Source of the DNA: Candidatus Methanofastidiosum methylothiophilum
GTDB lineage: Archaea > Methanobacteriota_B > Thermococci > Methanofastidiosales > Methanofastidiosaceae
Assembly (NCBI GenBank): GCA_001587575.1
Contig: LNJC01000002.1
Coordinates: 9,418-73,417 of the forward strand
Reading direction: 5' to 3'
DNA: 64,000 nt
Of this stretch, positions 6,342 through 14,153 are shown piece after piece (positions within the stretch are counted from its first letter, which is position 1; each line of letters begins with the position of its first letter). Position numbers and translations under genes: made by a program. The notes under the pieces are model-generated. The model made no database searches. It worked only from the letters and a program-made list of their open reading frames with translations, and was not told the origin of the DNA.

Positions 6342-7295
6342 TCAATTAATAATATCTTTTAAGACATTTTCTCTCTTATCTTTAAATTTACTAATATTTA
6401 GTAATATTTTATTTGAAGCATCCGTGAAAAATTCATTTAAGTAATATAAATTATAAGATTTAATTGAATCAATCGCCATTAGTTGGTACTTTAATGATAA
6501 ATTTAGTGTATTTTCTAAAATATCCGTTTCAATAAATCCCGCAGCAATATCCATGATTTCAGCTTTCCCTTTATAAACTAAACTTTCTTTCTCAAGATAT
6601 TGGATAACTTTAACAAGAGGATATGTAATCTGACTAGAATTAAAATCATCTTTCCACCCTAGAACATCATTAAATAACTGCATGGATGTTGCCCAGTACT
6701 CCATCATTAAGAGGAAATCATTTCTTTTACGTTTGTTTGAACCCTCAAGGTATAAGTATGATAAAATTGGGATTCTGAGGTGAAAAGCTTTTCTAGCCAT
6801 AAGTTCATAATCAAAATTTGACATATCTTCTGTAATTTCACCTTTATAATTATATCTTTGTTTTTCATAAAGAACAGCGTTTGAAAATTGTATCAAAGTT
6901 TCTTCTAGATCTTTCATAAAATTCTCATTTCTACCAATAAGACTAAAACATATATCGTACATTTTGAATTCACATATATTAGATAAAAGAAGCAAGTTCC
7001 TATCTATTGTTTCTGGATTGTCAAGTATGTCATCAATAATTCTCAAATGCATTATGCCGTAAACGTCAAGATTTGAAAGCTTCCTTGAAATATCTTTTTT
7101 ATTTTCAATATCAAATCCCTCTGATAACCAATAAGGAAATAGAAGAAAAGTATTGAATCCTGCCATTGAAACTTTGAATCTATCAAGAAAGGAAATTCCT
7201 AGATCAGAAATTGGTTTGTCAAGACCGCCTATAAAAGAATAAACGTCACCAAGTACAAGATTAATTTCTTCACTAAAATCATCAAAAAAAATCAT
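6342..7295 (-). CDS. Hypothetical protein, possibly isoprenoid-synthase (class I terpenoid/prenyl synthase) fold
   Basis: 317 aa. An Asp-rich motif IIDDILD (DDxxD) is followed ~120 aa later by NDVLGWKDD (NSE/second Asp-rich-like). The start overlaps the ksgA stop. There is no other recognisable domain, so the fold assignment is weak. Confidence 0.3.
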   Translation of the reverse strand: MIFFDDFSEEINLVLGDVYSFIGGLDKPISDLGISFLDRFKVSMAGFNTFLLFPYWLSEGFDIENKKDISRKLSNLDVYGIMHLRIIDDILDNPETIDRNLLLLSNICEFKMYDICFSLIGRNENFMKDLEETLIQFSNAVLYEKQRYNYKGEITEDMSNFDYELMARKAFHLRIPILSYLYLEGSNKRKRNDFLLMMEYWATSMQLFNDVLGWKDDFNSSQITYPLVKVIQYLEKESLVYKGKAEIMDIAAGFIETDILENTLNLSLKYQLMAIDSIKSYNLYYLNEFFTDASNKILLNISKFKDKRENVLKDIIN

Positions 7296-10541: not shown

Positions 10542-13346
10542 TTAAAGACCCTTAAAGGATTTATCAATTAATCCGTAGCAGATCTGCAACTTCTTTACAA
10601 TTTCGTGCTCTGTAGCAGAATCTTTATGGAAGGGTATGCTTTCGAATTTCTGAAGTAGTGCATTGTATTTGTTCTGGGCTTCCCATATCTTTGAAAGAAG
10701 AACTTCTTTGTCTCTATACATCTTAATAAATTCTGTACATCCTTCTTTTATCTCAATGATATCTCTTTCATACTGTATTTCATAGTCTATTTGCTTTATT
10801 AAATTCTGACATTGCTGTATTCTTTCTTTAAGAAGCTCTTGAGATTTCATATCTAATTCATTTTCAAACTGCTTGTAATTAGCAACTATATCTTTGTATT
10901 CACCTATCATCCCCATGACAAGTTCCTTATCTGAAGGCTCAACGTAGGAGTACCTTGTAATAAATCCACCAATCTTGTTCACAATTTTATCTATCTTACT
11001 CTGTACTATTTCTTTTTCAGCGTCTTTTATTCTATTACTAAATTCTGACATCAATGCTTCTATTTCAAGCCTCAACTGTTCGTCGTATTCCATTAATAGG
11101 CCCTGCTTTTCTTTTATCAATGTCTGATACTCGTCTTTTGCTTCTGCAGGATTTCTTAAGACCTGTGCAAAACTATATCTTTCAAGCAATCCTTTAATTT
11201 TTCTAATAAAGTATTGAAGCTCTTCTTCTTTTACTATCTCTGCGTGTTCTACTCTCTTCTTTAATCTTGCAAGTATTTGATCAATATCGTCTCTCTTGTC
11301 TTCGGCTATTATCGATAGAATCTCGTTTCTTGTCTTCATTAGATCTCTGTAAAGGTCACGCACCTCAAATAAGTTAGAATTAATATATCCCTGGTCAAAT
11401 TTTATGTCAAAAGTCTGTGCTCTTCTTAGAAGAATATCTATCTTTTGGAGTTCGTCTTCCTGGACGTCTTTTAATTTAGCGCTTATTTTTTCTATCTTTC
11501 TTTCAATCTCTATTTCTTGTTCTGAATTTGCAAAGACTATTATGTCCTCTTTATCTTTTAGAAGTTTTTGGAATTCTTCCTTTGCTTTTATTATATTATC
11601 CAGTATTTTCTCTTCGGTGAACTCTCCAATTTTCTTATTTAGATATTCTATAAATTCGTCAACGTAGCCTTTCTTGCCATCTTCTATTTCTTTTATTCTA
11701 TTGTCAAAGGCATTAAGATTAATATTGATGGCCTTTTCAAGTTCATAATCAATTCCAACAGGTAGATTTTTTTGCTCTCTTCTAAGGCTGTTGTAAAGTA
11801 CTACCGCTTCTTTTATGTTTGCATCTATATGTTCTTTAGGATATTTTTCCAGTATGGAAATAGTTTTCTGGAGAAAATCCTCTAATATTTTGATCTTAGC
11901 CTCTTCAGTTTTGATTACTTTTTCTTGGATTTCAGATAAATTACTTTCAATTACAATTTCAAGATCTGCAGGTAATTTCTTTTTTTCTTCAAGAAGTTTG
12001 TGATACATCTGCCTTGCTGATTCCAAATCTGTATTAATTTTAGAATAGTCAAATTCTTCCAATGCCTTGTAAGAATTTTCTAAAAAGTTCTCAAGTTCTC
12101 TTTTTTTAATCGCTTCTACATTCTTAACTCTCAAGTAAAGATCGTTTAGATTTTTCTCTATTTTTTTGCTTAATTCATTGGAAAATCTTGGATATAGCCT
12201 TTGCATATCCCTTGACAAAGCAACATAAGTTCTCTCTGCTTCAGATAAATTACCAGCAATATACTCTTCAGTGTATTTTTCAAGAGCCCTTCCAGTTCTA
12301 TCATAAACAAAAGATAAATTTTCAATTTCCCTTTTTTCTACATCCTCTATTCTTGAAAGAAGAGTGTCAATTGAGTTTTTAACTTTCTCTTCAATTTTAG
12401 AGTCAATTGTACCTTTCAAAGAATTATTTATTTTGCTATATTTTTCATAAACTGTTCTAGAATCCAATGGATTTTCTAGGATATACTGTTCAGTAAAAAT
12501 AGGGAGAAGCTTTTCAACTTCATCAAGTATAGTCAAGAGATCCATTCTTTTCTTATCTTCTATTTCCTTTATTCTCTGACTTAAAATTTTAAGATTATTA
12601 TCAATAAGTGTTACCCTTCCACCTTTTAGTTGCTTCTTCTTCTCAATTAAAGAAGCATAAATCTGCCTAGTCTCATCAAAGTTTTCTGTAATGTACTGGT
12701 CATTCAAATACTTATTTTTCTCTTCGATTTCTTTTAAGAATAGTTCGTAATCTTGTTTCAAGACATTCTCAGCTTTTTCTATTTTATCTTCAATATTTAA
12801 CAAATATTTTTTTATCTCTCCTTCAATCTCGGGAGATATATTTTTTGGAAGTTTTTTATTTTCAACATCAAGAAGCGAAAAAATCTCAAGCACTTCAGTG
12901 TAATTGTTAAGTATATACTCTTCGGTAAAAACCTCATCCTTGTTTTTTACTTTTCTTAGGAAATTAAGAAGCGTTAGCTCTTGTTCTTTTTCTGTCTGGT
13001 CTATTCTGTACTTTAGCTCTAATAAGTTTGAGTCAATTTTTTTCTGGATATCCCAGACTATGACTTTTAATTCATCTATCTCGTCATAGATTTTTTGTTC
13101 TTCTATTTCTGTTGTTTCTTTGCCACTAACAGTCTCAACGTTTTCTCTAATCTTTTGGAGTTTCTCTTCAAAATTTTCAATTTCCCACTGTTTAATCGAT
13201 TCAATATTATGTGATTTTAATTTCTCTAGATATTCTTTGTATCCGTCAAGTAACTTTGTTATTTCAAGGATTCTCTCTTCATTAGATGTTTCAACTTGAG
13301 AAATCCTCTCAGCCAATTCATCTATTTTTTTGTTTTCAAATGGCAT
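10542..13346 (-). CDS. Large (934 aa) internal-repeat alpha-helical/coiled-coil protein of unknown function
   Basis: About 12 tandem ~65-aa modules share the pattern ...LEKYt-EEYI-xN--EAxxxYxxLxxEKKxLP...NLxxIxxRIKxIEdxK. The protein is highly charged (E/K-rich), with no TM segment or signal peptide. Confidence 0.6.
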   Translation of the reverse strand: MPFENKKIDELAERISQVETSNEERILEITKLLDGYKEYLEKLKSHNIESIKQWEIENFEEKLQKIRENVETVSGKETTEIEEQKIYDEIDELKVIVWDIQKKIDSNLLELKYRIDQTEKEQELTLLNFLRKVKNKDEVFTEEYILNNYTEVLEIFSLLDVENKKLPKNISPEIEGEIKKYLLNIEDKIEKAENVLKQDYELFLKEIEEKNKYLNDQYITENFDETRQIYASLIEKKKQLKGGRVTLIDNNLKILSQRIKEIEDKKRMDLLTILDEVEKLLPIFTEQYILENPLDSRTVYEKYSKINNSLKGTIDSKIEEKVKNSIDTLLSRIEDVEKREIENLSFVYDRTGRALEKYTEEYIAGNLSEAERTYVALSRDMQRLYPRFSNELSKKIEKNLNDLYLRVKNVEAIKKRELENFLENSYKALEEFDYSKINTDLESARQMYHKLLEEKKKLPADLEIVIESNLSEIQEKVIKTEEAKIKILEDFLQKTISILEKYPKEHIDANIKEAVVLYNSLRREQKNLPVGIDYELEKAININLNAFDNRIKEIEDGKKGYVDEFIEYLNKKIGEFTEEKILDNIIKAKEEFQKLLKDKEDIIVFANSEQEIEIERKIEKISAKLKDVQEDELQKIDILLRRAQTFDIKFDQGYINSNLFEVRDLYRDLMKTRNEILSIIAEDKRDDIDQILARLKKRVEHAEIVKEEELQYFIRKIKGLLERYSFAQVLRNPAEAKDEYQTLIKEKQGLLMEYDEQLRLEIEALMSEFSNRIKDAEKEIVQSKIDKIVNKIGGFITRYSYVEPSDKELVMGMIGEYKDIVANYKQFENELDMKSQELLKERIQQCQNLIKQIDYEIQYERDIIEIKEGCTEFIKMYRDKEVLLSKIWEAQNKYNALLQKFESIPFHKDSATEHEIVKKLQICYGLIDKSFKGL

Positions 13347-13385
13347 AATAATAACACCAAGGCTATTTTATTATAGTAATATTTT

Positions 13386-14153
13386 CTATTTATTTTTGCT
13401 GTTTTTATATATTTCTGCAAGAGTTAGGAGGTATTCCTCCTCTGCAAAGTGCAACTCTGCCGGTATAACTAATGTATGGGGAGGTGGACCATAAAACTCT
13501 TTTTCAAATTTTGCCAATTCTTCCATATCTCCATATATAATTCTTTGATTTTCATGACTAATTCTTGAGATTACCACTATATCTTTAATATTATTATTTT
13601 CATCAAGTCTTTTTAATATATCTATTGCTTCCTTAGGATTCATAAAAAGATTTTTCTCCTTTTTCACATCGAGCAAAAGCATTGTATGTAGATTTCTTTC
13701 TTTATTCTCAATTGTAACATCATAAAAACTCCTTGGAAAGAAGTTTTCTTCAGGGTACGGTATACTTGCAGTTTTCCCAAATCTATAAATGTGGAGGCCT
13801 GTTTCAGCAATGGCGGAATAAATGGAAGATGAATGAAGTACTTTTGTTTGAATTCCTTTTTTATTTGCTCTTAAGAGTATGTCTGTATGAGTTGTTGCAA
13901 CAAGGGGGTCTCCTGAAACTAGAAGTGCAACATCTTCCTTTTTTGCAGTCTCTAGAAATAAAGGATTTTTTTCTATATCTTCTCTTGAAAGAGGCGATAC
14001 TTTTTTGTTCAGCGAATTTTCTAACCACAGAAGATCAAAATCAAAATAATTGGTATAGGTATCCAAGTAAATATTATCGATTTTAGTTAAGAGTTCAAAG
14101 GCTTTAAGTGAAATCTCTTTTTCTGAAAGCCCTAAGCCTATAAGGTATAACAT
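13386..14153 (-). CDS. dphB: Diphthine synthase
   Basis: N-terminal MLYLIGLGL and tetrapyrrole-methylase-like fold pattern. 255 aa. Confidence 0.8.
   Translation of the reverse strand: MLYLIGLGLSEKEISLKAFELLTKIDNIYLDTYTNYFDFDLLWLENSLNKKVSPLSREDIEKNPLFLETAKKEDVALLVSGDPLVATTHTDILLRANKKGIQTKVLHSSSIYSAIAETGLHIYRFGKTASIPYPEENFFPRSFYDVTIENKERNLHTMLLLDVKKEKNLFMNPKEAIDILKRLDENNNIKDIVVISRISHENQRIIYGDMEELAKFEKEFYGPPPHTLVIPAELHFAEEEYLLTLAEIYKNSKNK

What the first reader, a model, noticed from the sequence alone, without database searches (positions are those of the whole stretch)
10542..13346. 934-aa cytoplasmic protein built from ~12 tandem ~65-aa helical repeats
The translation shows a clearly periodic module, repeated about a dozen times with its own conserved anchor residues: ...LEKY(T/P)-EEYI-x-N---EAxxxYxxLxxEKKxLP...NLxxIxxRIKxIEdxK.... 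It has no signal peptide, TM segment or enzymatic motif. This looks like a spectrin- or apolipoprotein-like repeat scaffold, a protein class poorly described in archaea. The size and the degree of repeat conservation suggest a structural or cytoskeletal role, or a molecular ruler.
Basis: seen in the sequence. Interest (0 to 1): 0.6.

Follow-up and report, generated by a model that had tools for sequence, protein, structure and literature searches.

The report
Orphan archaeal spectrin-like helical repeat rod
A 934-residue cytoplasmic protein found only in the uncultured methanogen genus Methanofastidiosum is predicted to fold into a long rod of about a dozen short three-helix bundles, an architecture like spectrin but with no sequence relative in any annotated family; its function is untested.

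Summary
ORF 10542-13346 (-) encodes a 934-aa, 111-kDa, acidic, E/K/I/L-rich protein with no TM segment or signal peptide. It is internally periodic (BLOSUM autocorrelation z = 11.6), but the period is 70-75 aa, not ~65. There are 9 canonical repeats (aa 130-787), 2 recognisable degenerate ones (aa 66-129, 862-934) and 2 helical repeat-length segments with no detectable repeat signal.

The gene is real and tightly constrained. dN/dS is about 0.03, lower than its neighbours pus10 and dphB. Length is 934-935 aa in 37 orthologues, and the SD/start block is invariant.

There are no Pfam, NCBIfam, PHROG, PADLOC or PDB sequence matches. An exhaustive HMMER search of 1.84 billion representatives found the full-length protein only in Methanofastidiosum. 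It also found two remote relatives: a 3-repeat protein and a TM-anchored single-repeat protein from another Methanofastidiosia MAG.

Best reading: a lineage-specific spectrin-like rod or scaffold of roughly 40 nm (my estimate). It is a new sequence family of a known architectural kind, and the function is inferred, not shown.

The parts
10542..13346 (-). Complete ORF, 934 aa plus stop. 111 kDa, pI 5.0, 15% E, 12.6% K, 11% I, 11% L.
   Evidence: 100% identical to KYC46243.1, hypothetical protein APG12_00166 of Ca. Methanofastidiosum methylothiophilum.
13344..13361 (-). Translation-initiation block CTTGGTGTTATTATTATG: a GGTG Shine-Dalgarno-like motif at 13355-13358, an 8-nt spacer, then ATG.
   Evidence: Invariant in 9 lineages whose synonymous sites are otherwise saturated.
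13152..13346 (-). aa 1-65: N-terminal helical segment of repeat length with no significant repeat signal.
   Evidence: 22/300 shuffles reach its score.
12960..13151 (-). aa 66-129: degenerate repeat.
   Evidence: 16.7 bits against the 9-repeat HMM; 0/300 shuffles reach it.
12735..12959 (-). Repeat 1 (aa 130-204)
12528..12734 (-). Repeat 2 (aa 205-273; 4-residue shorter B-C loop)
12306..12527 (-). Repeat 3 (aa 274-347)
12084..12305 (-). Repeat 4 (aa 348-421), used as the seed: ...LEKYTEEYIAGNLSEAERTYVALSRDMQRLYPRFSNELSKKIEKNLNDLYLRVKNVEAIKK...
11874..12083 (-). Repeat 5 (aa 422-491)
11652..11873 (-). Repeat 6 (aa 492-565). This is the stretch best matched by the remote relatives P0045 and P0046 in the full-length profile search.
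11430..11651 (-). Repeat 7 (aa 566-639)
11208..11429 (-). Repeat 8 (aa 640-713)
10986..11207 (-). Repeat 9 (aa 714-787)
10545..10985 (-). aa 788-934: C-terminal module, the part most conserved among orthologues (81% and 74% invariant columns). aa 862-934 is a degenerate repeat. aa 788-861 is helical with no significant repeat signal. It contains the protein's only 3 Cys and 2 of its 5 His.
13386..14153 (-). Upstream neighbour dphB/dph5 (diphthine synthase), 39 nt from the repeat gene.
   Evidence: TIGR00522, 237.6 bits
9324..10526 (-). Downstream neighbour pus10 (tRNA pseudouridine synthase), 15 nt after the stop codon. It is followed tightly by rpl21e, rpoF, DUF655 and ksgA.

Best explanation
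This is a genuine, strongly constrained protein specific to the genus Methanofastidiosum. It is cytoplasmic and predicted to fold into an elongated rod of about 11-13 tandem three-helix bundles of ~74 aa each.

In each unit, the second half of a long helix acts as helix A. A capped turn (Y-T/P/D) follows, then a kinked 6+17-residue helix B (EEYI-x-N-L-x-EA...Y..L). Next comes a Leu-Pro loop. The first half of the next long helix (..LE..I..NL.....RIK.IE) acts as helix C. Helix C continues without a break into helix A of the next unit, which is the spectrin way of joining repeats.

The residues conserved between repeats are helix caps and core hydrophobics, so they hold the fold rather than forming a catalytic site. 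By contrast, each individual repeat is highly conserved between orthologues, most of all the C-terminal 150 residues. This suggests that each position along the rod has its own partner or packing contact.

The most likely role is a passive structural scaffold or spacer. From ~20-residue helices at 1.5 A per residue I estimate roughly 3 nm per unit and about 35-40 nm in total. I infer that the rod docks or self-associates through its C-terminal end.

Shown here: the repeat anatomy, purifying selection, taxonomic restriction and the predicted fold. Inferred: rod length, scaffold function and C-terminal docking.
For: - Periodicity and repeat boundaries.
- Real gene under strong purifying selection. 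dN 0.06-0.10 with saturated dS. dN/dS is 0.031-0.034, against 0.08-0.12 for pus10 and dphB in the same genome pairs.
- Length is 934-935 aa in 37 orthologues at 82-100% identity. The SD/start block is invariant.
- All-helical full-length model with a regular long/short/medium helix pattern.
- Fragment aa 172-355 modelled at pLDDT 91.2 and pTM 0.71.
- No TM segment and no coherent heptad signal across the repeats.
- No hit to an enzymatic or any other family.
- The C-terminal module is the most conserved part.
Against: - The fold is a prediction from a shallow alignment (24 rows). I had no coordinates, so bundle packing, handedness and straightness could not be inspected.
- The full-length model has pTM 0.29, so the overall shape is undefined.
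- Nothing here bears directly on function: no expression data, no partner, no localisation.
- Very high surface conservation is unusual for a purely passive spacer.
- The gene sits in a translation/transcription operon, which may point to a more specific role.
Confidence: 0.55

Rival explanations
1. It is an adaptor dedicated to translation or tRNA modification. The rod would tether or organise the products of its operon neighbours (DphB, Pus10, L21e, RpoF, DUF655, KsgA), or ribosomes and tRNA.
For: The gene is embedded on one strand with 39-nt and 15-nt gaps between dphB and pus10, followed by tightly packed rpl21e-rpoF-DUF655-ksgA. This arrangement is kept in all 13 Methanofastidiosum loci retrieved and in L001/L002.
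Against: More distant Methanofastidiosia keep pus10-rpl21e-rpoF-DUF655-ksgA without this gene and without dphB upstream. The cluster therefore functions without it. No RNA-binding or enzyme-binding domain was detected, and the protein is acidic (pI 5.0). The remote relatives P0045 and P0046 lie in unrelated contexts.
Confidence: 0.15
2. It is a long two-stranded coiled-coil protein (SMC/Rad50-like, intermediate-filament-like or crescentin-like) that forms filaments by dimerising in parallel.
For: E/K/L/I-rich all-helical sequence. Hydrophobic residues are spaced 3-4 apart within helices.
Against: The helices are interrupted every 20-40 residues by conserved Pro/Gly/Asn-containing loops. There is no coherent heptad signal over aa 130-787 (power 0.04 at period 7, 0.02 at 3.5). 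A monomeric fragment folds back on itself at pLDDT 91. No ATPase head or any SMC/Rad50 Pfam hit was found.
Confidence: 0.1
3. It is an amphipathic-helix repeat protein that binds membranes or lipids, or protects against stress (apolipoprotein-, perilipin- or LEA-like).
For: The helices are highly charged and amphipathic. One remote relative, P0046, carries the module behind an N-terminal TM helix.
Against: The prediction is a confident, defined tertiary fold rather than disorder. The period is 74 aa with fixed loops. There is no Pfam apolipoprotein or LEA match, and apolipoprotein A-IV appears only at E 0.9-4.4 in the PDB profile search. An 11/22-mer periodicity was not specifically examined.
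Confidence: 0.1
4. It is not a functional gene: a spurious long ORF or a decaying low-complexity sequence.
For: No detectable homologue outside one genus, and no annotation.
Against: dN/dS is about 0.03 with saturated synonymous sites. There are no frameshifts or stops in 37 orthologues, length is fixed at 934-935 aa, and the ribosome-binding block is invariant.
Confidence: 0.01

Closest known systems
Eukaryotic spectrin repeats (spectrin, alpha-actinin, plakin domains of plectin and desmoplakin; Pfam PF00435)
   Different: The repeat is 70-75 aa, not ~100-106. There is no sequence match to PF00435 or to any spectrin chain in the PDB. The rmsd over tandem units is high (6.8-9.8 A). There is no helix-A tryptophan: the whole protein has ~3 Trp. 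There are no actin-binding, EF-hand, SH3 or PH accessory domains. Handedness was not determined.
Bacterial EzrA (spectrin-like regulator of FtsZ; PMC4243239)
   Same: A prokaryotic protein made of linear triple-helical bundles joined by continuous helices, with no sequence homology to spectrin. It acts as a scaffold.
Single three-helix-bundle domains (GAT domain of Tom1, BAG domains, ribosomal protein bS20)
   Different: They are stand-alone domains with specific ligands (ubiquitin, Hsp70, rRNA). Sequence identity is 8-15%, with no tandem array. The similarity is generic to the fold.
P0045 (434 aa, metagenomic archaeon) and P0046 (MFQ6088966.1, Ca. Methanofastidiosia archaeon)
   Same: These are the only proteins outside the genus that share the repeat by sequence. 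They match the 9-repeat HMM at 31 bits (twice, plus a 13-bit third repeat) for P0045 and at 45 bits for P0046. They carry the same anchors: L..yT..yI..nL.eA...y..L.....LP....LE..I..NL..l..RI.
   Different: P0045 has 2-3 repeats after an acidic N-terminal region. P0046 has a single repeat behind a TM helix and a Pro-rich linker. Both are uncharacterised. P0046 is a singleton, and only two near-identical loci were found for P0045. Their genomic contexts are unrelated.

Membership tests
Spectrin repeat (Pfam PF00435) | Sequence match to the family profile | tested here: not met
   Pfam scan at E<=10 lists no spectrin model. PDB sequence searches with the protein and with the repeat profile find no spectrin chain.
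Spectrin repeat (Pfam PF00435) | Repeat unit of ~100-106 residues | tested here: not met
   Period is 70-75 aa. The ~100-aa figure is from PMC4243239.
Spectrin repeat (Pfam PF00435) | Antiparallel three-helix bundle whose last helix is continuous with the first helix of the next repeat | tested here: met
Spectrin repeat (Pfam PF00435) | Left-handed connectivity of helices A-B-C | not testable with these tools
Only DSSP strings and search tables were returned.
EzrA (septation ring formation regulator) | N-terminal TM anchor, five ~100-aa triple-helical repeats, C-terminal four-helix bundle | tested here: not met
   No TM segment, 74-aa repeats and no EzrA Pfam hit. EzrA architecture is taken from PMC4243239.
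SMC / Rad50-like coiled-coil ATPases | Walker A/B ATPase head halves at the termini, flanking a long antiparallel coiled coil | tested here: not met
   No SMC_N, AAA or Rad50 Pfam or NCBIfam hit. The termini are helical repeats. There is no coherent heptad signal.
Exchangeable apolipoproteins (PF01442) / LEA-type amphipathic repeats | 11/22-residue amphipathic repeat periodicity and a profile match | tested here: not met
   No Pfam hit. The dominant period is 74 aa. ApoA-IV appears only at E 0.9-4.4 with the repeat profile. The 11/22-residue periodicity itself was not specifically examined.
Phage or defence-system proteins | Match to PHROGs or PADLOC models | tested here: not met
   No PHROG hit. 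PADLOC gives only a 16-bit spurious REase_II hit with no passing stretch.

The most novel reading that the evidence does not exclude
Methanofastidiosum may have evolved its own spectrin analogue independently of eukaryotes and of bacterial EzrA. This would be a ~40-nm cytoplasmic rod of 13 mini three-helix bundles, built by amplifying a 74-aa module. That module still exists as a single membrane-anchored copy in a sister Methanofastidiosia lineage. The rod would work as a cytoskeletal strut or molecular ruler, for example spacing or organising membrane or envelope components. Its C-terminal end, which is the most conserved part, would be the docking site.
Probability: 0.25. Interest if true: 0.65.

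Novelty: new variant of a known kind. Interest (0 to 1): 0.42.

Why it matters
Linear arrays of interconnected triple-helical bundles have been described as a hallmark of spectrins and of bacterial EzrA (PMC4243239). I found no description of an archaeal counterpart in the literature searched.

This would be a third, independently evolved sequence family with that architecture, with an unusually short 74-aa unit. It occurs in an uncultured methyl-reducing methanogen lineage whose cell biology is unknown.

The combination is unusual and means the protein does something this genus depends on. It is strictly restricted to one genus, yet purifying selection on it is stronger than on Pus10 or diphthine synthase. 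The compact, confidently predicted repeat could also interest protein designers as a modular rod.

The practical limits are that the organism is uncultured and the function is unknown.

Tried and rejected
- **Self-BLASTP** returned only the identity hit. I replaced it with autocorrelation and an iterated HMM.
- **Autocorrelation script**: the first version timed out. It was rewritten.
- **Repeat-profile search of the 5.8-billion word-indexed database** returned only two fragments. The word index is unsuited to 22%-identical repeats.
- **Search seeded with P0046** found only P0046 itself.
- **Full-length model against the PDB with Foldseek**: best E 0.09 (dynein tail), uninformative because pTM was 0.29.
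- **Fragment against the PDB with Foldseek**: nothing below E 0.49.
- **afdb50 library** was unavailable.
- **In-register alignment of overlapping 2.5-repeat windows** (A3): MAFFT aligned the overlaps by identity, so I discarded it. I used non-overlapping windows instead (A4).
- **Sigma-70 promoter and terminator scan** is at background level and not applicable to an archaeon.
- **Rfam scan of the whole window** found no RNA family.
- **Literature searches** for the accession numbers and for archaeal spectrin-like proteins found nothing relevant.
- **Explanations considered and rejected:** SMC-like protein, phage or defence protein, secreted or S-layer protein (no signal peptide or TM segment), and spurious ORF.
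Full report
**1. Observation**

The minus-strand ORF 10542-13346 encodes 934 aa. The composition is 15% E, 12.6% K, 11% I and 11% L. It has 1.3% P and 0.3% each of W and C. Molecular weight is 111 kDa and pI is 5.0.

BLOSUM62 autocorrelation against 300 shuffles peaks sharply at lag 74 (z 11.6) and at its multiples: 144/148, 218, 292 and 362/366. One repeat used as a phmmer seed recovers eight further copies at regular spacing.

Nine canonical repeats begin at aa 130, 205, 274, 348, 422, 492, 566, 640 and 714. Their lengths are 69-75 aa and their mean pairwise identity is 22%.

I tested the flanking segments against an HMM built only from those nine repeats:
- aa 66-129 and aa 862-934 are still significantly related (0/300 and 1/300 shuffles reach their scores).
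- aa 1-65 and aa 788-861 are not.

'About a dozen' is therefore right, but the period is ~74 aa rather than ~65. There is no DNA-level tandem repeat, so the copies are ancient. No 19-residue window exceeds a Kyte-Doolittle mean of 0.66, so there is no TM helix or signal peptide.

**2. Is it a real gene?**

The protein is 100% identical to KYC46243.1, hypothetical protein APG12_00166 of Candidatus Methanofastidiosum methylothiophilum. Thirty-seven full-length orthologues at 82-100% identity are all 934 or 935 aa long.

Against four other Methanofastidiosum lineages, dN is 0.06-0.10 while synonymous sites are saturated. Where dS can be computed, dN/dS is 0.031-0.034. That is lower than for the neighbours pus10 (0.08-0.12) and dphB (0.08-0.12), and similar to glnA.

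The 18-nt block CTTGGTGTTATTATTATG (GGTG, spacer, ATG) is invariant in nine lineages. This is a translated gene under strong purifying selection.

**3. Distribution**

There is no significant Pfam, NCBIfam, PHROG or PDB sequence match; PADLOC gave only one 16-bit hit with no passing stretch, which I treat as spurious.

An exhaustive hmmsearch with the family profile against 1.84 billion 50%-identity representatives gave only nine hits:
- The family's own representative.
- Six fragments. The three I inspected (P0039, P0041, P0042) are joined to unrelated sequence and look like assembly chimeras.
- Two genuine remote relatives, P0045 and P0046.

P0045 (434 aa) has two clear repeats and one weak one after an acidic N-terminal region. 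P0046 (150 aa, MFQ6088966.1, from a 'Candidatus Methanofastidiosia archaeon') has an N-terminal TM helix, a Pro-rich linker and a single repeat that scores 45 bits against the nine-repeat HMM. P0046 is a singleton. P0045 has two near-identical metagenomic loci next to a divergently oriented DEAD-box helicase carrying DUF5814.

A scan of GTDB species genomes with Pus10 retrieved two groups of loci. Thirteen loci have Pus10 at 74-87% identity, and each shows this gene immediately upstream of pus10, cut off by the contig end in L005 and L015. Five loci come from more distant Methanofastidiosia (Pus10 45-49%). I examined two of these in detail, L020 and L021. In both, the pus10-rpl21e-rpoF-DUF655-ksgA cluster is intact but is preceded by an oppositely oriented MATE transporter gene. 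Neither has the repeat gene or dphB at that position.

The 13-unit protein is thus a genus-level feature. The 74-aa module is older and occurs, rarely, elsewhere in the same class.

**4. Structure**

*Full-length model.* AlphaFold2 gives an all-helical chain with mean pLDDT 72.8 and pTM 0.29, so the global shape is undefined. The local pattern is strictly repeating: a 38-44-residue helix crossing each repeat border, a 6-residue helix, a one-residue break at the conserved Asn, a 16-20-residue helix, and a 3-7-residue loop containing the conserved Leu-Pro.

*Fragment model.* A 184-residue fragment (aa 172-355) was modelled with orthologues plus two non-overlapping in-register windows of the same protein. 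It reaches pLDDT 91.2 and pTM 0.71 with the same pattern.

Foldseek gave nothing significant for either model.

I read this as follows. Each 74-aa unit is a short three-helix bundle, and adjacent units share a continuous helix. That is the spectrin/EzrA way of building a rod (PMC4243239), but there is no evidence of homology.

The residues conserved between repeats are helix caps (T/P/D after Tyr, Asn before helix B, Pro at the start of helix C) and hydrophobics spaced 3-4 apart. They are structural, not catalytic.

There is no coherent heptad signal across aa 130-787. That, and the fold-back of a monomeric fragment, argue against a continuous two-stranded coiled coil.

**5. Context**

The gene lies on one strand between dphB (diphthine synthase, TIGR00522; 39-nt gap) and pus10 (15-nt gap). 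Downstream follow rpl21e, rpoF, DUF655, ksgA and an unannotated 317-aa ORF, with gaps of 2 nt and 15 nt, a direct abutment, and two 4-nt overlaps. This looks like one housekeeping operon.

The rest of the cluster exists without this gene in sister lineages. I therefore take the context as evidence for constitutive co-expression rather than for a shared pathway. A translation-linked adaptor role remains a rival.

**6. Mechanism proposed**

*Shown here:*
- Repeat anatomy.
- Strong constraint.
- Restriction to the genus.
- A confident predicted fold of tandem three-helix bundles.

*Inferred:*
- The protein is an elongated cytoplasmic rod. With ~20-residue helices at 1.5 A per residue I estimate about 3 nm per unit and 35-40 nm overall if it is straight.
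- It serves as a scaffold or spacer.

Conservation between orthologues is uneven along the chain. Invariant columns make up 35-54% of the segments covering aa 1-421. They make up 47-69% of the segments covering aa 422-787. In the C-terminal two units they reach 74-81%. The whole surface, not only the core, is conserved. I infer position-specific partner contacts or lateral self-packing, with the C-terminal ~150 residues as the main docking or oligomerisation element. That region also holds all three Cys of the protein.

The TM-anchored single-repeat relative P0046 hints that the ancestral module may have worked at the membrane. This is speculation.

**7. Comparison and novelty**

Architecturally the closest known systems are spectrin-family rods and bacterial EzrA. 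Membership in either family fails on sequence match, repeat length and accessory domains, and for EzrA also on the TM anchor. SMC-like, phage and defence families are excluded by the tests run. Apolipoprotein/LEA-type families have no profile match, but their 11/22-mer periodicity was not examined.

It is best described as a new sequence family (an orphan at genus level) that realises a known architectural principle with an unusually short unit: a new variant of a known kind. No paper in the searchable library mentions the protein.

**8. Verdict**

The 'spectrin-like repeat scaffold' reading is supported at the level of predicted architecture. The apolipoprotein alternative is disfavoured, and the functional guesses remain untested.

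Interest is moderate. The protein is a well-behaved, strongly conserved and taxonomically very narrow structural-looking protein in an uncultured methanogen. It is intriguing for archaeal cell biology and for the evolution of repeat proteins, but it has no experimental handle yet.

Noticed in passing
window 6342-7295 (-): A 317-aa ORF that overlaps the end of ksgA by 4 nt and closes the same gene string. It has no Pfam, NCBIfam or PDB sequence hit, yet it is kept in the same position in relatives at 82% identity (L001 14051-15004). It contains an 'RIIDDILD' stretch that recalls the DDxxD motif of isoprenoid synthases. That resemblance comes from memory only and was not tested.
   Followed up: partly
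L004 15-455 (+) (JBHIDS010000112.1, Ca. Methanofastidiosia archaeon): A small protein (P0046) with an N-terminal TM helix, a Pro-rich linker and a single copy of the 74-aa repeat. It is probably complete from the ATG at nt 15, although it is annotated as partial. It sits next to a triple-HTH protein and a 1502-aa protein rich in CarboxypepD_reg domains, which may be a surface protein. It could represent the ancestral, membrane-anchored form of the module.
   Followed up: partly
L003 2178-3482 (+); L023 8001-9302; L024 1721-3022: A 434-aa protein (P0045) with an acidic N-terminal region and 2-3 copies of the repeat. It is transcribed divergently from a 799-aa DEAD-box helicase with a C-terminal DUF5814 domain. 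Its taxonomic origin was not determined, beyond my recollection (not checked) that DUF5814 is an archaeal family.
   Followed up: partly
proteins P0039, P0041, P0042: Metagenome-predicted proteins in which pieces of this gene are joined to unrelated sequence. The partners are an IF2-like N-terminus, an SMC/AAA N-terminus with a Walker A motif, and one other. They are most likely assembly chimeras. They could mislead automated domain-architecture surveys into linking the repeat with ATPase heads.
   Followed up: no
L020 5478-6857 (-) and L021 5416-6978 (-): In more distant Methanofastidiosia (Pus10 45-47% identical), the conserved pus10-rpl21e-rpoF-DUF655-ksgA string is preceded by an oppositely oriented MATE-type efflux gene instead of dphB plus the repeat gene. 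The MATE assignment is from reading the sequence and was not scanned. A conserved 185-aa ORF follows ksgA there, instead of the 317-aa ORF seen in the window.
   Followed up: no
window 1-64000: No Rfam family reaches its gathering score anywhere in the 64-kb window on either strand, so no tRNA, rRNA or other known RNA family was detected. No separate tRNA scan was run.
   Followed up: no
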